64,000 bases of DNA from Escherichia coli (GTDB taxonomy: Bacteria; Pseudomonadota; Gammaproteobacteria; Enterobacterales; Enterobacteriaceae), in the NCBI RefSeq assembly GCF_009931435.1, contig NZ_CP043414.1. One strand, given 5' to 3'. Position numbers and translations under genes: made by a program. The notes beneath the pieces were generated by a model, which was given only the letters and a program-made list of their open reading frames with translations, was not told the origin of the DNA and ran no database searches. This document shows, in pieces, positions 32,625-37,397 of this stretch; position 1 is the first letter of the stretch; every line of letters begins with the position of its first letter.

Positions 32625-35600
32625 ATGAATATGCGGATTATCTTTCTACGCAAGGAGTATTTATCTTTACTCCCGTCAATGATTGCATCTCTTTTCTCTG
32701 TTAACAGTGTTGCGGAGGTTTTGGATTCATGCCAGGGATATGATATCAAAGCGAGTTGTCAGGCCAGCAGGCAAAGCCTTTCAGGCATTACGCAGGACTG
32801 GAGCATCGCCAATGGGCAATGGGTGATTTTTTCGGGTATGGCCAATAATGCTAGCGGTGGCGCCGTATTTTTGCAACAAGGAGCGGAGTTTTCTCTATCG
32901 CCAGAAAATGAAACTGGAATGACTCTGTTTGCCAATAATACTGTCTCAGGAGAATATAATAATGGCGGGGCAATATTTGCTAAAGAAAACTCAACGCTGA
33001 ATCTTACTGATGTTATTTTTTCCGGTAACGTCGCAGGCGGCTATGGTGGCGCAATCTATTCTTCTGGTACTAATGATACTGGTGCCGTCGATTTACGTGT
33101 CACTAACACCATGTTTATCAATAACATCGCTAATGATGGCAAAGGTGGCGCAATTTATACCATCAATAATGATGTCTATTTAAGTGATGATGTTTTTAAT
33201 AATAACCAGGCATATACATCAACAAGTTACAGTGATGGCGATGGTGGTGCAATCGATGTCACCGATAATAATAGCGATATCACGCATCCGTCAGGTTTCA
33301 CAATAATAAATAACACCGCATTTACAAATAACACTGCCGAAGGTTATGGCGGGGCAATTTATACCAATAGCGTGACGGCTCCCTATCTTATTGATATTTC
33401 TGTTGATGACAGCTACAGCCAGAACGGCGGTGTGTTAATCGATGAGAACAATTGCGCAGCAGGCTATGGGGATGGTCCTTCCACTGCGGCGGGCGGCTTT
33501 ATGTATCTCGGCTTAAGTGAAGTTACCTTTGATATTGCTGACGGAAAAACGCTGGTTATCGGCAATACAGAGAATGATGGAGCTGTTGACTCTATTGCTG
33601 GTACCGGGTTGATCACCAAAACAGGTTCCGGCGATCTGGTACTTAATGCAGATAACAATGACTTTACTGGTGAGATGCAGATTGAAAACGGTGAAGTTAC
33701 CCTGGGTCGCAGCAACTCCCTGATGAATGTCGGAGATAATCATTGCCAGGACGATCCGCAAGACTGCTACGGTCTGACGATAGGGAGTATTGATAAGTAC
33801 CAGAATCAGGCAGAGCTAAATGTTGGCTCCACCCAACAAACCTTTGTGCACGCATTGACGGGCTTTCAGAATGGCACTTTAAATATCGATGCTGGTGGCA
33901 ATGTTACTGTTAATCAAGGCAGTTTTGCTGGCACCATCGAAGGTGCTGGTCAGCTCACCATTGCGCAAAACGGCAGCTACGTGCTGGCAGGGGCGCAGTC
34001 GATGGCGCTAACTGGCGATATAGTCGTTGATGATGGCGCGGTGCTTACGCTAGAAGGCGACGCGGCAGATCTCGCCGCTCTCCAGGACGAGCCGCAGTCG
34101 ATCGTGTTAAACGGCGGTGTGCTCGATCTCTCTGATTTCTCCACCTGGCAGAGCGGCACATCATACAACGATGGCCTTGAAGTCAGCGGCAGCAGCGGAA
34201 CGGTTATCGGCAGTCAGGATGTGGTAGATCTTGCAGGCGGAAACGATATGCATATCGGCGGCGACGGGAAAGATGGCGTCTACGTGGTGGTCGATGCGGG
34301 TGATGGGCAGGTCAGCCTGGCAAATGACAATCAATACCTCGGCACAACGCAAATTGCTTCCGGTACGCTGGTGGTGAGTGACAACTCGCAGCTTGGAGAT
34401 ACCCACTATAACCGCCAGGTTATCTTTACCGATAATCAACAAGAAAGCGTGATGGAGATTACTGCCAATGTCGATACTCGCTCTACAACGGTTGAGCATG
34501 GGCGTGATATTGAAATGCGCGCCGACGGTGAAGTGGCAGTTGATGCGGGGGTAGACACGCAGTGGGGCGCACTGATGGCTGACAGCAGCGGGCAGCATCA
34601 GGATGAGGGTAGCACATTGACTAAAACGGGTGCTGGCACCCTGGAGCTGACCGCCAGCGGTACTACGCAGTCTGCGGTACGTGTTGAAGAAGGTACCCTG
34701 AAAGGCGATGTTGCGGATATTTTTCCTTATGCTTCGTCGCTGTGGATTGGTGACGGAGCAACGTTCGAGACTGGCGCAGATCAGGATATCCAGTCTATTG
34801 ATGCTACTTCCAGCGGCACTATCGACATCAGTGATGGCACCGTTTTGCGCCTGACGAGTCAGGATACTTCCGCCGCACTGGATGCCTCGCTGTTTAACGG
34901 CGACGGTACGTTGGTGAATGCCACCGATGGCGTGACGTTGACAGGCGAGCTTAATACTAACCTGGAAACTGACAGCCTGACCTATCTTTCCGATGTGACG
35001 GTTAATGGTGATCTAACCAATATGTCCGGTACAGTCAGTCTGCAAAATGGCGTCGCTGGCGATACGCTCACGGTAAACGGTGATTACACCGGCGGCGGTA
35101 CGTTGTTTCTCGACAGCGAATTAAACGGCGATGACTCGGTAAGCGACCAACTGGTGTTGAACGGCAATACCTCGGGTAACACGACCGTGGTGGTTAACCC
35201 CATTACCGGCACTGGTGAACCGACTTCTACAGGTATTAAAGTGGTTGATTTCACTGCTGATCCCACGCAATTTCAAAACAATGCGCTGTTTAGTCTTGCG
35301 GGCAGCGGCTACGTTAATATGGGAGCGTATGACTACACGCTGGTGGAAGATAACAACGACTGGTATCTGCGATCGCAAGAAGTCACTCCGACGCCGCCGC
35401 CCGATCCGGACCCGACTCCAGATCCTGATCCCACGCCGGATCCTGATCCAACACCCGACCCGGCTCCAGCCCCTACGCCTGCCTACCAGCCGGTGCTGAA
35501 CGCCAAAGTTGGTGGCTATCTCAATAACCTACGTGCGGCAAATCAGGCATTTGTGATGGAGCGACGCGATCACGCTGGTGGCGATGGTCAGACGCTGAAT

Positions 35601-36389
35601 TTACGTGTTATCGGCGGAGATTATCATTACACGGCGGCAGGGCAGTTGGCCCAGCATGAAGACACTTCTACGGTACAGCTTAGCGGCAACTTGTTAAGCG
35701 GATACTGGGGCGATGATGGCCAGTGGATGCTAGGGGCCGTGGGCGGCTACAGCGATAACCAGGGTGACAGTCGATCAAACATGACCGGAACTCGCGCTGA
35801 TAACCAGAACTACGGTTATGCCGTTGGGCTGACCTCAAGCTGGTTTCAGCACCGTAGCCAAAAACAGGGGGCCTGGCTGGATAGCTGGCTGCAATACGCG
35901 TGGTTTAACAATGATGTTTCCGAACATGAAGATGGCGTGGATCATTACCACTCATCGGGGATTATCGCCTCGCTGGAAGCGGGGTATCAGTGGTTACCGG
36001 GGCGTGGTGTGGTGATTGAACCACAGGTGCAGGTGATTTATCAGGGTGTGCAGCAGGATGATTTTACCGCTGCTAACCATGCGCGGGTATCGCAATCGCA
36101 GGGCGATGATCTTCAGACGCGGTTGGGGATACACAGCGAATGGCGTACCGCTGTGCATATCACGCCAACCCTGGATCTGAATTATTATCACGATCCCCAT
36201 TCGGCGGGGATTGAAGAAGATGGCAGCGCTATCAGTGACGATGCGGTGAAGCAACGGGGTGAAATAAAAGTGGGGATAACAGGCAATATAAGTCAGCGAG
36301 TTTCCCTGCGTGGCAGCGTGGTGTGGCAGAAAGGAGACGATGGTTTTGTCCAAACGGCTGGGTTTCTATCGATGAGGGTGAAATGGTAA
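32625..36389 (+). CDS. yfaL: AIDA-I-type autotransporter adhesin (about 1250 aa)
   Basis: Signal-peptide-like N-terminus, long beta-helical passenger with repeated GGAIY motifs, proline-rich linker, and a C-terminal beta-barrel translocator ending in aromatic residues. The true start may be the ATG at 32631 (MRIIFL). Confidence 0.85.
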   Translation: MNMRIIFLRKEYLSLLPSMIASLFSVNSVAEVLDSCQGYDIKASCQASRQSLSGITQDWSIANGQWVIFSGMANNASGGAVFLQQGAEFSLSPENETGMTLFANNTVSGEYNNGGAIFAKENSTLNLTDVIFSGNVAGGYGGAIYSSGTNDTGAVDLRVTNTMFINNIANDGKGGAIYTINNDVYLSDDVFNNNQAYTSTSYSDGDGGAIDVTDNNSDITHPSGFTIINNTAFTNNTAEGYGGAIYTNSVTAPYLIDISVDDSYSQNGGVLIDENNCAAGYGDGPSTAAGGFMYLGLSEVTFDIADGKTLVIGNTENDGAVDSIAGTGLITKTGSGDLVLNADNNDFTGEMQIENGEVTLGRSNSLMNVGDNHCQDDPQDCYGLTIGSIDKYQNQAELNVGSTQQTFVHALTGFQNGTLNIDAGGNVTVNQGSFAGTIEGAGQLTIAQNGSYVLAGAQSMALTGDIVVDDGAVLTLEGDAADLAALQDEPQSIVLNGGVLDLSDFSTWQSGTSYNDGLEVSGSSGTVIGSQDVVDLAGGNDMHIGGDGKDGVYVVVDAGDGQVSLANDNQYLGTTQIASGTLVVSDNSQLGDTHYNRQVIFTDNQQESVMEITANVDTRSTTVEHGRDIEMRADGEVAVDAGVDTQWGALMADSSGQHQDEGSTLTKTGAGTLELTASGTTQSAVRVEEGTLKGDVADIFPYASSLWIGDGATFETGADQDIQSIDATSSGTIDISDGTVLRLTSQDTSAALDASLFNGDGTLVNATDGVTLTGELNTNLETDSLTYLSDVTVNGDLTNMSGTVSLQNGVAGDTLTVNGDYTGGGTLFLDSELNGDDSVSDQLVLNGNTSGNTTVVVNPITGTGEPTSTGIKVVDFTADPTQFQNNALFSLAGSGYVNMGAYDYTLVEDNNDWYLRSQEVTPTPPPDPDPTPDPDPTPDPDPTPDPAPAPTPAYQPVLNAKVGGYLNNLRAANQAFVMERRDHAGGDGQTLNLRVIGGDYHYTAAGQLAQHEDTSTVQLSGNLLSGYWGDDGQWMLGAVGGYSDNQGDSRSNMTGTRADNQNYGYAVGLTSSWFQHRSQKQGAWLDSWLQYAWFNNDVSEHEDGVDHYHSSGIIASLEAGYQWLPGRGVVIEPQVQVIYQGVQQDDFTAANHARVSQSQGDDLQTRLGIHSEWRTAVHITPTLDLNYYHDPHSAGIEEDGSAISDDAVKQRGEIKVGITGNISQRVSLRGSVVWQKGDDGFVQTAGFLSMRVKW

Positions 36390-36528: not shown

Positions 36529-37251
36529 TCACTTATTCTGCGTGTGCAGCATATAGTTCACATCTACGCCGGGACCGAGCTTAAAAGTGTTAGTAATCGG
36601 GTTGTAATGCAGTCCGATCATATGCCGTTCTTTTAGACTGGTCTGATCCACCCAGCCCAGCAATTCTGCCGGTTTAATAAACTTCTTCACATCATGCGTA
36701 CCTTTAGGCACCATGCGTAAAATATATTCCGCACCAACCACCGCCATCAGCCACGACTTGCCGTTGCGGTTAAGCGTCGAGAAAAAGACATCGCCGCCCG
36801 GTTTTACCAGTTGCGCACAGGCTCTGACCACTGACTGCGGATCGGGAACGTGCTCCAGCATCTCCATGCAGGTCACCACATCATACTGCCCGGCATGTTT
36901 TGCGGCGTGCTCTTCCACGGTTTCCTGCACGTAATTCACCTGAATGCCACTTTCCAGTGCGTGCAGCTTTGCCACCTGCAATGGCTCAAAGCCCATATCC
37001 AGACCGGTCACCGTCGCGCCTTCGCGCGCCATACTCTCGGCCAGAATGCCGCCGCCACAACCGACATCGAGTACCTTTTTGCCAAATAAACCGCCAGCAC
37101 GCTCGGCAATATAGCCCAGACGCAGCGGGTTAATGCGGTGCAGCGGTTTGAACTCACCTTCCAGATCCCACCAGCGGGAGGCGACGGCTTCAAATTTAGC
37201 GATCTCTTCGTGGTCTACGTTAGGGGTTACCGGCGATTTTTCGGCATTCAT
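36529..37251 (-). CDS. ubiG: ubiquinone biosynthesis O-methyltransferase (240 aa)
   Basis: Start at [20 protein letters not shown]; SAM-binding motif ([13 protein letters not shown]). Confidence 0.95.
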
Positions 37252-37397
37252 TGGCACTTCTACTCCGTAATTGGCAAGACAAACGAGTATATCAGGCATT
37301 GGATGTGAATAAAGCGTATAGGTTTACCTCAATCAGCGCGGCTGTGTTATAATTTGCGACCTTTGAATCCGGGATACAGTAGAGGGATAGCGGTTAG

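What the first reader, a model, noticed from the sequence alone, without database searches (positions are those of the whole stretch)
35385..35482. Proline-rich tandem repeat (PTPDPD) in the linker of the yfaL autotransporter
The DNA encodes PTPPPDPDPTPDPDPTPDPDPTPDPAPAPTP from near-identical short nucleotide repeats (CCGACTCCAGATCCTGATCCCACGCCGGATCCTGATCC...). Such repeats are prone to slipped-strand length variation and form the spacer that projects the passenger domain. Copy number may differ between strains and change adhesin reach.
Basis: seen in the sequence. Interest (0 to 1): 0.35.

Follow-up and report, generated by a model that had tools for sequence, protein, structure and literature searches.

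The report
Variable proline-rich spacer in YfaL adhesin
This is the proline-rich (PDPDPT)n spacer that joins the surface-exposed part of the E. coli autotransporter adhesin YfaL/EhaC to its membrane barrel; its length does differ between E. coli strains (18-34 residues), but it is an ordinary, family-wide feature of such adhesins.

Summary
Window 35385-35483 encodes TPTPPPDPDPTPDPDPTPDPDPTPDPAPAPTPA (residues 921-953, 53% Pro) of yfaL/ehaC (32625-36389, +). It is the only tandem repeat in the 64-kb window with a TRF score of at least 50. The stretch lies between the autochaperone domain and the pore helix of the beta-barrel, and an AlphaFold2 model shows it as an extended coil.

The DNA copies in this allele are not near-identical. 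The 18-nt units share 13-15 of 18 bases, and the longest exact repeat is 11 nt. All 45 E. coli genomes carrying this allele have the same length.

Across about 5,400 complete E. coli genomes the spacer is polymorphic: 18, 22, 24, 25, 30 (most common) and 32 residues. One allele family has a perfect 18-nt unit present in 1, 2 or 3 copies within otherwise identical flanks, which points to recent slippage. Microhomology deletions also end in the repeat. All changes seen in complete genomes keep the reading frame, so this changes spacer length and is not an on/off switch.

Pro-rich spacers at this junction occur in most homologous autotransporters (median 30 residues, 31% Pro). The closest known case is the pertactin R1/R2 polymorphism. 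An effect on adhesin reach is untested. Interest is low.

The parts
32625..36389 (+). yfaL/ehaC coding sequence (AIDA-I-type autotransporter adhesin; RefSeq starts two codons later, at 32631)
   Evidence: ORF list. NCBIfam NF007285 equivalog 2729.6 bits against cut-off 1459. RefSeq annotation of the 99.9% identical locus, flanked by nrdA/ypaB and ubiG/gyrA.
35010..35372 (+). Autochaperone / Pertactin-like C-terminal cap of the passenger (residues 796-916), ending in the WYLR motif
   Evidence: Pfam AC_1 796-906 (6.8e-18) and Pertactin 813-916. Aligns to the AIDA-I transport unit 4MEE and the IcsA autochaperone 3ML3 up to WYL(T)S. Beta strands at pLDDT >90 in the AF2 model.
35385..35483 (+). 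Pro-rich spacer, residues 921-953: TPTPPPDPDPTPDPDPTPDPDPTPDPAPAPTPA
   Evidence: Translation. 53% Pro. No secondary structure and a pLDDT dip to 66-80 in the AF2 model, model residues 141-173.
35400..35453 (+). Core repeat, three exact peptide copies of PDPDPT encoded by three degenerate 18-nt units (13-15 of 18 identical)
   Evidence: TRF 35398-35449, period 18, score 62. Unit comparison and peptide tandem detection.
35257..35268 (+). 12-nt direct repeat CTGATCCCACGC, upstream copy, in the autochaperone domain ('ADPTQ'). Partner of 35425-35436.
   Evidence: Exact-match search. E. coli VTB97022v carries the 168-nt in-frame deletion between these two copies.
35425..35436 (+). 12-nt direct repeat CTGATCCCACGC, downstream copy, inside the spacer
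35502..35546 (+). Alpha-helix predicted to sit in the barrel pore (residues 960-974)
   Evidence: AF2 helix at model residues 180-194. Aligns with the start of the 4MEE helix and barrel segment.
35595..36380 (+). 12-stranded autotransporter beta-barrel (residues 991-1252)
   Evidence: Pfam PF03797 993-1232, 2.1e-31. AF2 strands at model residues 211-472. 4MEE match 7e-35.

Best explanation
The stretch is the proline-rich spacer of the autotransporter adhesin YfaL/EhaC. It is an alternating Pro-X segment, (PDPDPT)3 plus degenerate ends, and it links the last folded element of the passenger (the autochaperone cap) to the alpha-helix that plugs the C-terminal beta-barrel. Shown here: its position, its composition, its lack of predicted secondary structure, its presence in most homologues, and its length polymorphism. 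Inferred: the segment stays extended, probably in a polyproline-II-like form of roughly 3 A per residue. That would make it about 10 nm for 32 residues and about 5.5 nm for 18, holding the beta-helical passenger away from the barrel rim and the LPS core. Because it does not fold, it may also let the autochaperone clear the pore before folding. At the DNA level the repeat is a substrate for replication slippage and for deletion between short direct repeats. Where the 18-nt units are perfect, copy number changes on short timescales (1, 2 or 3 copies in identical backgrounds). Where synonymous differences have accumulated, as in this window's allele, the array is stable. All changes seen in complete genomes are multiples of 3 nt, so they alter spacer length and do not switch expression on or off.
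For: Gene and domain identity. Junction position relative to solved AIDA-I (4MEE) and IcsA autochaperone (3ML3) structures. The AF2 model (pLDDT 90.7, pTM 0.85) shows coil at model residues 141-173 between the beta-helix cap and helix 180-194 plus a 12-strand barrel. Family-wide conservation: among 108 representatives (clusters at <=50% identity) with both anchors, spacer length has a median of 30 aa (range 10-94) and median Pro of 31% against 2.2% for whole proteins. 85 of the 108 have >=25% Pro, and 31 carry exact tandem peptide repeats. Polymorphism: spacers of 22, 24, 25, 30 and 32 aa in 21 sequenced E. coli alleles; 18 and 34 aa in further Escherichia proteins. Two evenly spaced samples of 60 genomes each give about 65-68% with 30 aa, 20-22% with 24 aa, 7-8% with 32 aa and 2-3% with 22 aa. 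Recent events: L024 (24 aa) and L010 (30 aa) have identical 580-nt flanks and differ by one perfect unit CCTGACCCAACACCCGAT. With L010 as query, 3-copy, 2-copy (97.4% = a pure 18-nt gap; this band is dominated by the 2-copy class and holds 1121 genomes) and 1-copy (>=14 genomes) forms occur at otherwise 99.6-100% identity. L003 against L002 shows a 12-nt deletion between CCCGAC repeats. There is a 168-nt deletion between 12-nt repeats. Stability of degenerate arrays: 45 of 45 window-type genomes and 21 of 21 sampled K-12-type genomes keep the same length. Purifying selection on the peptide pattern: units differ mostly at synonymous sites while the alternating Pro is kept.
Against: No experiment here or in the searched literature measures spacer conformation, surface exposure or adhesion as a function of spacer length. 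No paper in the library combines YfaL with 'proline-rich'. AIDA-I itself has only about 10 residues at this junction, so a long spacer is not required for secretion in this family. Length classes follow allele lineages for the most part, which fits neutral drift as well as selection. The AF2 coil prediction carries moderate confidence only (pLDDT 66-80) and says nothing about rigidity.
Confidence: 0.8

Rival explanations
1. The spacer is selectively neutral low-complexity filler. Its length variation is drift from occasional slippage, with no effect on adhesin function.
For: AIDA-I works with about 10 residues at the same junction. Homologue spacers range from 10 to 94 aa with no fixed length. 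Length classes largely follow allele lineages.
Against: A Pro-rich spacer is kept in 85 of 108 distant homologues, at 31% Pro against 2.2% background. Within E. coli the PxPx pattern is preserved while synonymous sites diverge, so composition at least is under purifying selection. No complete genome sampled lacked it entirely except deletion alleles.
Confidence: 0.3
2. The repeat is mainly an exposed antigenic or ligand-binding segment whose variation serves immune escape or altered binding, like the variable Pro-rich R1/R2 regions of pertactin, and is not a mechanical spacer.
For: Pertactin alleles differ in the number of Pro-rich repeats (PMC8931430). The yfaL segment is far more divergent among E. 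coli (80-90% identity in 5160 of 5419 genomes) than the neighbouring ubiG (95-99% in 5278 of 5425). Amino-acid changes concentrate at the spacer ends: PTPPP/PPSPP/PPLPP and APAPTPA/APDPTPA/EPTPA/GPTPA/IPA.
Against: The (PDPDPT) core is conserved at the peptide level across allele families. The segment sits at the base of the passenger next to the membrane, the least accessible place. No binding or serological data exist for it. In the pertactin study no antibody engaged R1 or R2.
Confidence: 0.12
3. The repeat acts as a contingency locus that switches YfaL on and off by frameshifting.
For: A few database proteins are frameshifted inside the spacer and end prematurely (P0034, P0035, P0039, P0069).
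Against: The repeat period is 6 or 18 nt, so slippage keeps the frame. Every length variant found in complete genomes is a multiple of 3 nt. The frameshifted examples come from unverified Logan/ENA assemblies and involve single-base changes.
Confidence: 0.02
4. The feature matters at the DNA level. The cluster of five Dam GATC sites within 47 nt (35403-35448) would act as a SeqA/Dam-dependent element.
For: It is the densest GATC cluster in the 64-kb window.
Against: GATC arises automatically from Asp-Pro codon pairs GAT-CCN. Other alleles use GAC at several of these positions, so the sites are not conserved. The region is inside a long coding sequence far from the promoter.
Confidence: 0.02

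Closest known systems
Pertactin (Bordetella) variable Pro-rich repeat regions R1 (GGxxP) and R2 (PQP)
   Same: Both are Pro-rich tandem peptide repeats in a beta-helical classical autotransporter passenger. Alleles differ in repeat number, and variation is slow and lineage-linked, not within a single infection (PMC8931430). YfaL residues 813-916 match the Pfam Pertactin domain.
   Different: Pertactin R1 and R2 are described as loops of the beta-helix (R2 near its C-terminal end). The YfaL repeat lies after the autochaperone cap, directly before the pore helix. The unit sequence differs (PDPDPT). No vaccine or immune selection is documented for YfaL.
AIDA-I transport unit (PDB 4MEE) and IcsA autochaperone (PDB 3ML3/5KE1)
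   Same: Same architecture: an autochaperone domain ending in WYL(T/R)S, then a connector, then the pore helix and a 12-strand barrel. Sequence matches are 7e-35 and 4e-07.
   Different: AIDA-I has about 10 residues between WYLTSHL (138) and the helix start (149). YfaL has about 40, including the 32-residue Pro-rich spacer.
Pro-rich connectors of other AIDA-type autotransporters (Group 8 adhesins such as MisL, ShdA, EhaA; PMC9289746)
   Same: 108 representative homologues carry a Pro/Asp/Glu/Thr-rich segment at the same junction, with a median of 30 aa, and 31 have exact tandem repeats such as PDPD, PEPT and PVDP. NCBIfam gives partial matches to MisL and ShdA over the C-terminal part.
   Different: Unit sequence and length are specific to each protein. 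Only the YfaL alleles were examined for within-species polymorphism.
Extended Pro-rich stalks and spacers in surface or envelope proteins (S. mutans P1 polyproline-II stalk; TonB (EP)n(KP)n, from general knowledge)
   Same: Alternating Pro-X repeats are thought to form an extended, fairly rigid segment that spans a defined distance (P1 is cited in PMC8931430).
   Different: No homology. The conformation of the YfaL spacer has not been measured.

Membership tests
YfaL/EhaC (NCBIfam NF007285, AIDA-I family autotransporter adhesin) | Full-length match to the equivalog model above its curated cut-off | tested here: met
   2729.6 bits against cut-off 1459, residues 3-1254 on profile 1-1250.
YfaL/EhaC (NCBIfam NF007285, AIDA-I family autotransporter adhesin) | Conserved chromosomal position nrdAB-ypaB-yfaL-ubiG-gyrA in E. 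coli | tested here: met
   Annotated neighbours of the 99.9% identical locus in NZ_CP029180.1. ubiG and gyrA lie downstream in the window.
Classical (type Va) autotransporter | C-terminal 12-stranded beta-barrel (PF03797) preceded by a pore alpha-helix | tested here: met
   PF03797 2.1e-31. AF2 shows helix 180-194 and 12 strands at pLDDT about 90+. 4MEE match.
Classical (type Va) autotransporter | Beta-helical passenger ending in an autochaperone domain | tested here: met
   PF18883 AC_1 6.8e-18, PATR and PMP repeats. 3ML3/5KE1 match.
Classical (type Va) autotransporter | N-terminal signal peptide and actual surface display | not tested
   The N-terminus MRIIFLRKEYLSLLPSMIASLFSVNSVAEV looks like a signal peptide. 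Display is reported for K-12 YfaL in cited work. It was not tested for this allele.
Polymorphic tandem repeat generated by replication slippage | Head-to-tail DNA copies detectable above chance | tested here: met
   TRF score 62, period 18, the only hit in 64 kb. Copies in this allele are only 72-83% identical.
Polymorphic tandem repeat generated by replication slippage | Copy number differs between otherwise near-identical sequences by whole units | tested here: met
   1, 2 or 3 perfect 18-nt units with 99.6-100% identical flanks in the 'IPA' allele family. This is not seen within the window's own allele (45 of 45 equal).
Phase-variable contingency locus | Repeat unit not a multiple of three, or length changes that shift the reading frame reversibly | tested here: not met
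   Units are 6 or 18 nt. All length classes in complete genomes are multiples of 3 nt (0, -6, -21, -24, -30, -36, -168/-174).
Extended spacer that sets passenger-to-membrane distance | Extended conformation, and dependence of surface exposure or adhesion on spacer length | not testable with these tools
   Only position, composition and the predicted lack of secondary structure are available.

The most novel reading that the evidence does not exclude
Spacer length is adaptively tuned: the number of PDPDPT-type units is selected to match the thickness of each lineage's O-antigen or capsule layer, so that the YfaL passenger is either exposed or shielded. The repeat would then be a slow 'reach' dial. 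It would also be a hotspot for microhomology deletions that remove the autochaperone and silence the adhesin.
Probability: 0.1. Interest if true: 0.45.

Novelty: new member of a known kind. Interest (0 to 1): 0.2.

Why it matters
It matters little beyond careful annotation. The result documents that the base spacer of a core-genome E. coli adhesin, which is also used as a surface-display scaffold, comes in discrete lengths of 18-34 residues. It also shows that perfect 18-nt units still expand and contract. This could guide the choice of YfaL scaffold for display constructs, give a small typing marker, and provide natural variants for testing whether spacer length affects exposure through LPS or capsule. 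The repeat is also a place where draft and metagenome assemblies break, and where in-frame deletions remove part of the autochaperone.

Tried and rejected
1. The literature search for YfaL plus 'proline-rich' found nothing. Ko et al. 2012 (PMC3346495) and Drobnak et al. 2015 (PMC4275399) are not held.

2. The word-indexed protein search returned mostly contig-end fragments, many from S. sonnei. It gave a few extra alleles but no usable census.

3. I considered counting every spacer allele with short allele-specific megablast queries. I rejected this because partial high-identity alignments of the flanks would contaminate the identity bands. Two evenly spaced 60-genome samples and band counts from full 695-701-nt queries were used instead.

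4. I tried to explain why S. sonnei draft contigs always break inside the spacer. An IS insertion is suspected. The collections available hold no complete S. sonnei genome, so this stays unresolved.

5. Protein P0018, with the head GSGSGVGSGSG, looked like an inversion allele. It is a fold-back at a contig end, most likely an assembly artefact.

6. Phase variation and a Dam/SeqA element were considered and rejected (see the rival explanations).

7. Overlapping ORFs on other frames or the other strand (35215-35499 +, 35121-35378 -) lie inside a strongly supported CDS and were not pursued.

Full report
**Observation**

The window carries a 1254-codon ORF at 32625-36389 on the + strand. Residues 921-953 (window 35385-35483) read TPTPPPDPDPTPDPDPTPDPDPTPDPAPAPTPA. 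(PDPDPT)x3 is an exact peptide repeat at 35400-35453. Proline makes up 53% of the stretch, against 2.6% of the whole protein.

Tandem Repeats Finder reports 35398-35449 with period 18, 2.9 copies, 79% matches and score 62.

One detail is overstated. The nucleotide copies are not near-identical. The 18-nt units share 13-15 of 18 bases, differing mostly at synonymous third positions. The longest exact direct repeat is 11 nt, GATCCTGATCC at 35421 and 35439.

**What it is**

The ORF is yfaL/ehaC. The NCBIfam equivalog NF007285 scores 2729.6 bits against a cut-off of 1459. The 99.9% identical locus in E. coli H9Ecoli is annotated yfaL and lies between nrdA/ypaB and ubiG/gyrA.

Pfam places the features as follows:
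- Autochaperone domain AC_1 at residues 796-906.
- Pertactin domain at residues 813-916.
- Autotransporter beta-domain at residues 993-1232.

The Pro-rich stretch therefore lies exactly between the last passenger element and the translocator. Sequence comparison with solved structures agrees. The AIDA-I transport unit (4MEE) and the IcsA autochaperone (3ML3, 5KE1) align up to the WYL(T/R)S motif, and 4MEE resumes at the pore helix. AIDA-I has only about 10 residues at this junction.

I ran an AlphaFold2 model of residues 781-1254 with 55 aligned homologues (pLDDT 90.7, pTM 0.85). It shows beta strands up to model residue 140 and no secondary structure at 141-173, where pLDDT dips to 66-80. A helix follows at 180-194, then a 12-strand barrel.

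**Family context**

An exhaustive HMMER search of 1.84 billion cluster representatives found 3685 relatives of the C-terminal 474 residues. In 108 of the best 150, both flanking anchors could be located. For the segment between the anchors:
- Median length is 30 residues, with a range of 10-94.
- Median Pro content is 31%, against 2.2% for the whole proteins.
- 85 of 108 have at least 25% Pro.
- 31 of 108 contain exact tandem peptide repeats, such as PDPD, PEPT and PVDP.

A Pro/Asp/Glu/Thr-rich connector at this junction is thus a general feature of this autotransporter group and is not peculiar to YfaL.

**Polymorphism in E. coli**

The 701-nt segment around the spacer is present in 5419 of 5426 complete E. 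coli genomes. In 21 alleles that I fetched, the spacer between WYLRSQE.. and YQP is 22, 24, 25, 30 or 32 residues long. Further Escherichia proteins have 18 and 34 residues.

Two evenly spaced samples of 60 genomes, taken with different queries, give consistent frequencies:

| Spacer length | Share of genomes |
|---|---|
| 30 residues (K-12, O157, Nissle) | 65-68% |
| 24 residues | 20-22% |
| 32 residues (the window's class) | 7-8% |
| 22 residues | 2-3% |
| 25 residues | 1 of 60 in the first sample, none in the second (under 2%) |
| Large (168-nt) deletion | 1 of 60 in each sample (the same genome, VTB97022v) |

Every length difference is a multiple of three.

**Recent or ancient change**

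Both occur, and which one depends on how pure the repeat is.

The window's allele is found at >=99% identity in 45 genomes, and all 45 have the same length. Twenty-one sampled genomes of the K-12 allele class (1890 genomes at >=99%) also share one length. In these alleles the units are degenerate.

One allele family, whose spacer ends in ...DPIPA, has a perfect 18-nt unit, CCTGACCCAACACCCGAT. With the 3-copy allele as query:
- 3 genomes are 100% identical.
- Most of a band of 1121 genomes sits at 97.4%, which is a pure 18-nt gap (2 copies).
- At least 14 genomes match at 99.6-100% in two pieces spanning 659 nt (1 copy).

L024 (2 copies) and L010 (3 copies) have identical flanks over 580 nt. 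Other closely related pairs also differ in length. L003 against L002 has a flank distance of 0.9% and a 12-nt deletion between CCCGAC repeats plus one Pro codon. L008 against L022 has a flank distance of 1.4% and lengths of 22 against 32 residues. These patterns are the expected footprints of replication slippage and microhomology-mediated deletion.

**Larger deletions**

E. coli VTB97022v carries a K-12-like allele (99.8% identical) with a 168-nt in-frame deletion. The deletion lies between two copies of CTGATCCCACGC, one in the autochaperone domain and one in the spacer. The same 12-mers are present in the window at 35257-35268 and 35425-35436. Two metagenome-derived proteins (P0009, P0010) show other deletions that end in the spacer.

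**Mechanism**

Shown here: the position, composition, conservation and polymorphism of the spacer, and the slippage footprints.

Inferred: the segment stays extended, probably polyproline-II-like at about 3 A per residue. That would be about 10 nm for 32 residues and about 5.5 nm for 18. It would hold the passenger off the barrel rim and LPS core, and may let the autochaperone clear the pore before it folds.

Purifying selection on the PxPx pattern is suggested because the alternating Pro is kept while synonymous sites diverge. Whether length matters for function is untested. AIDA-I works with a short connector, and length classes largely follow allele lineages, so neutrality of length is a serious rival. 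Phase variation is excluded by the in-frame unit size. The few frameshifted database entries are unverified single-base changes.

**Comparison with what is known**

The closest described case is pertactin, whose Pro-rich R1 and R2 repeats vary in copy number between alleles on a slow timescale (PMC8931430). YfaL is described as an AIDA-like adhesin that promotes biofilm and aggregation when over-expressed, and it is used as a display scaffold (PMC4321836, PMC13101318, PMC9289746). No paper in the searchable library mentions YfaL together with 'proline-rich'. The allele census is therefore a small addition, but the kind of feature is well known.

**Verdict**

- The repeat is degenerate and stable in this particular allele.
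- The variation is in-frame only.
- The 'reach' effect is untested.

I classify it as a new member of a known kind, of low interest (0.2).

Noticed in passing
window 35257-35268 and 35425-35436; locus L011 (NZ_CP178670.1): A 12-nt direct repeat, CTGATCCCACGC, occurs 168 nt apart, once in the autochaperone domain and once in the spacer. E. coli VTB97022v has exactly the in-frame deletion between the two copies, which removes the end of the autochaperone, yet the gene is annotated as intact. Metagenome proteins P0009 and P0010 show other deletions that end in the spacer.
   Followed up: yes
window 35403-35448: Five Dam GATC sites fall within 47 nt, the densest cluster in the 64-kb window. They arise from GAT-CCN (Asp-Pro) codon pairs and are not conserved in other alleles, which use GAC.
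   Followed up: partly
window 35085-35785 versus 36529-37299: The C-terminal part of yfaL is far more divergent within E. coli than the adjacent ubiG. The yfaL segment is 80-90% identical to the window in 5160 of 5419 genomes, while ubiG is 95-99% identical in 5278 of 5425. The closest genomes for the two genes are different strains, which suggests deep allelic lineages or recombination at yfaL.
   Followed up: partly
loci L012-L016 (Shigella sonnei drafts), L029-L032, L028: Draft assemblies break at the spacer. S. sonnei right-hand contigs from two assemblers all start at CGGCCCCTACGCC, and left-hand contigs end at or before ...CCGGATCCTG. About 15 nt plus an unknown insert are missing, and an IS element is suspected. 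E. coli and metagenome contigs start at CCTACCAGCC. One metagenome scaffold has an N-gap in the spacer with two allele types on either side. S. sonnei yfaL also seems to be interrupted near codon 305.
   Followed up: partly
locus L017 1-300 (GCA_045750765.1 contig start): The contig begins with a fold-back: the reverse complement of the spacer and helix region is joined at GGTGG to the forward sequence. This gives a called protein with the head MGSGSGVGSGSG (P0018). It is most likely an assembly artefact at a contig end.
   Followed up: partly
proteins P0034, P0035, P0039, P0069 (Logan/ENA assemblies): These are yfaL products frameshifted inside the spacer and ending in ...PLTSRC*. An example is GATCCA changed to GATCA. 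They could be real pseudogenes or sequencing errors.
   Followed up: no
window 32625-32633: The ORF's first ATG (32625, MNMRIIF...) lies two codons upstream of the start used by RefSeq for the same gene (32631, MRIIF...).
   Followed up: no
locus L020 (NZ_CP021840.1, strain EC974): In this urinary isolate yfaL is annotated as a pseudogene with an internal stop. The spacer itself is intact at 30 residues.
   Followed up: no
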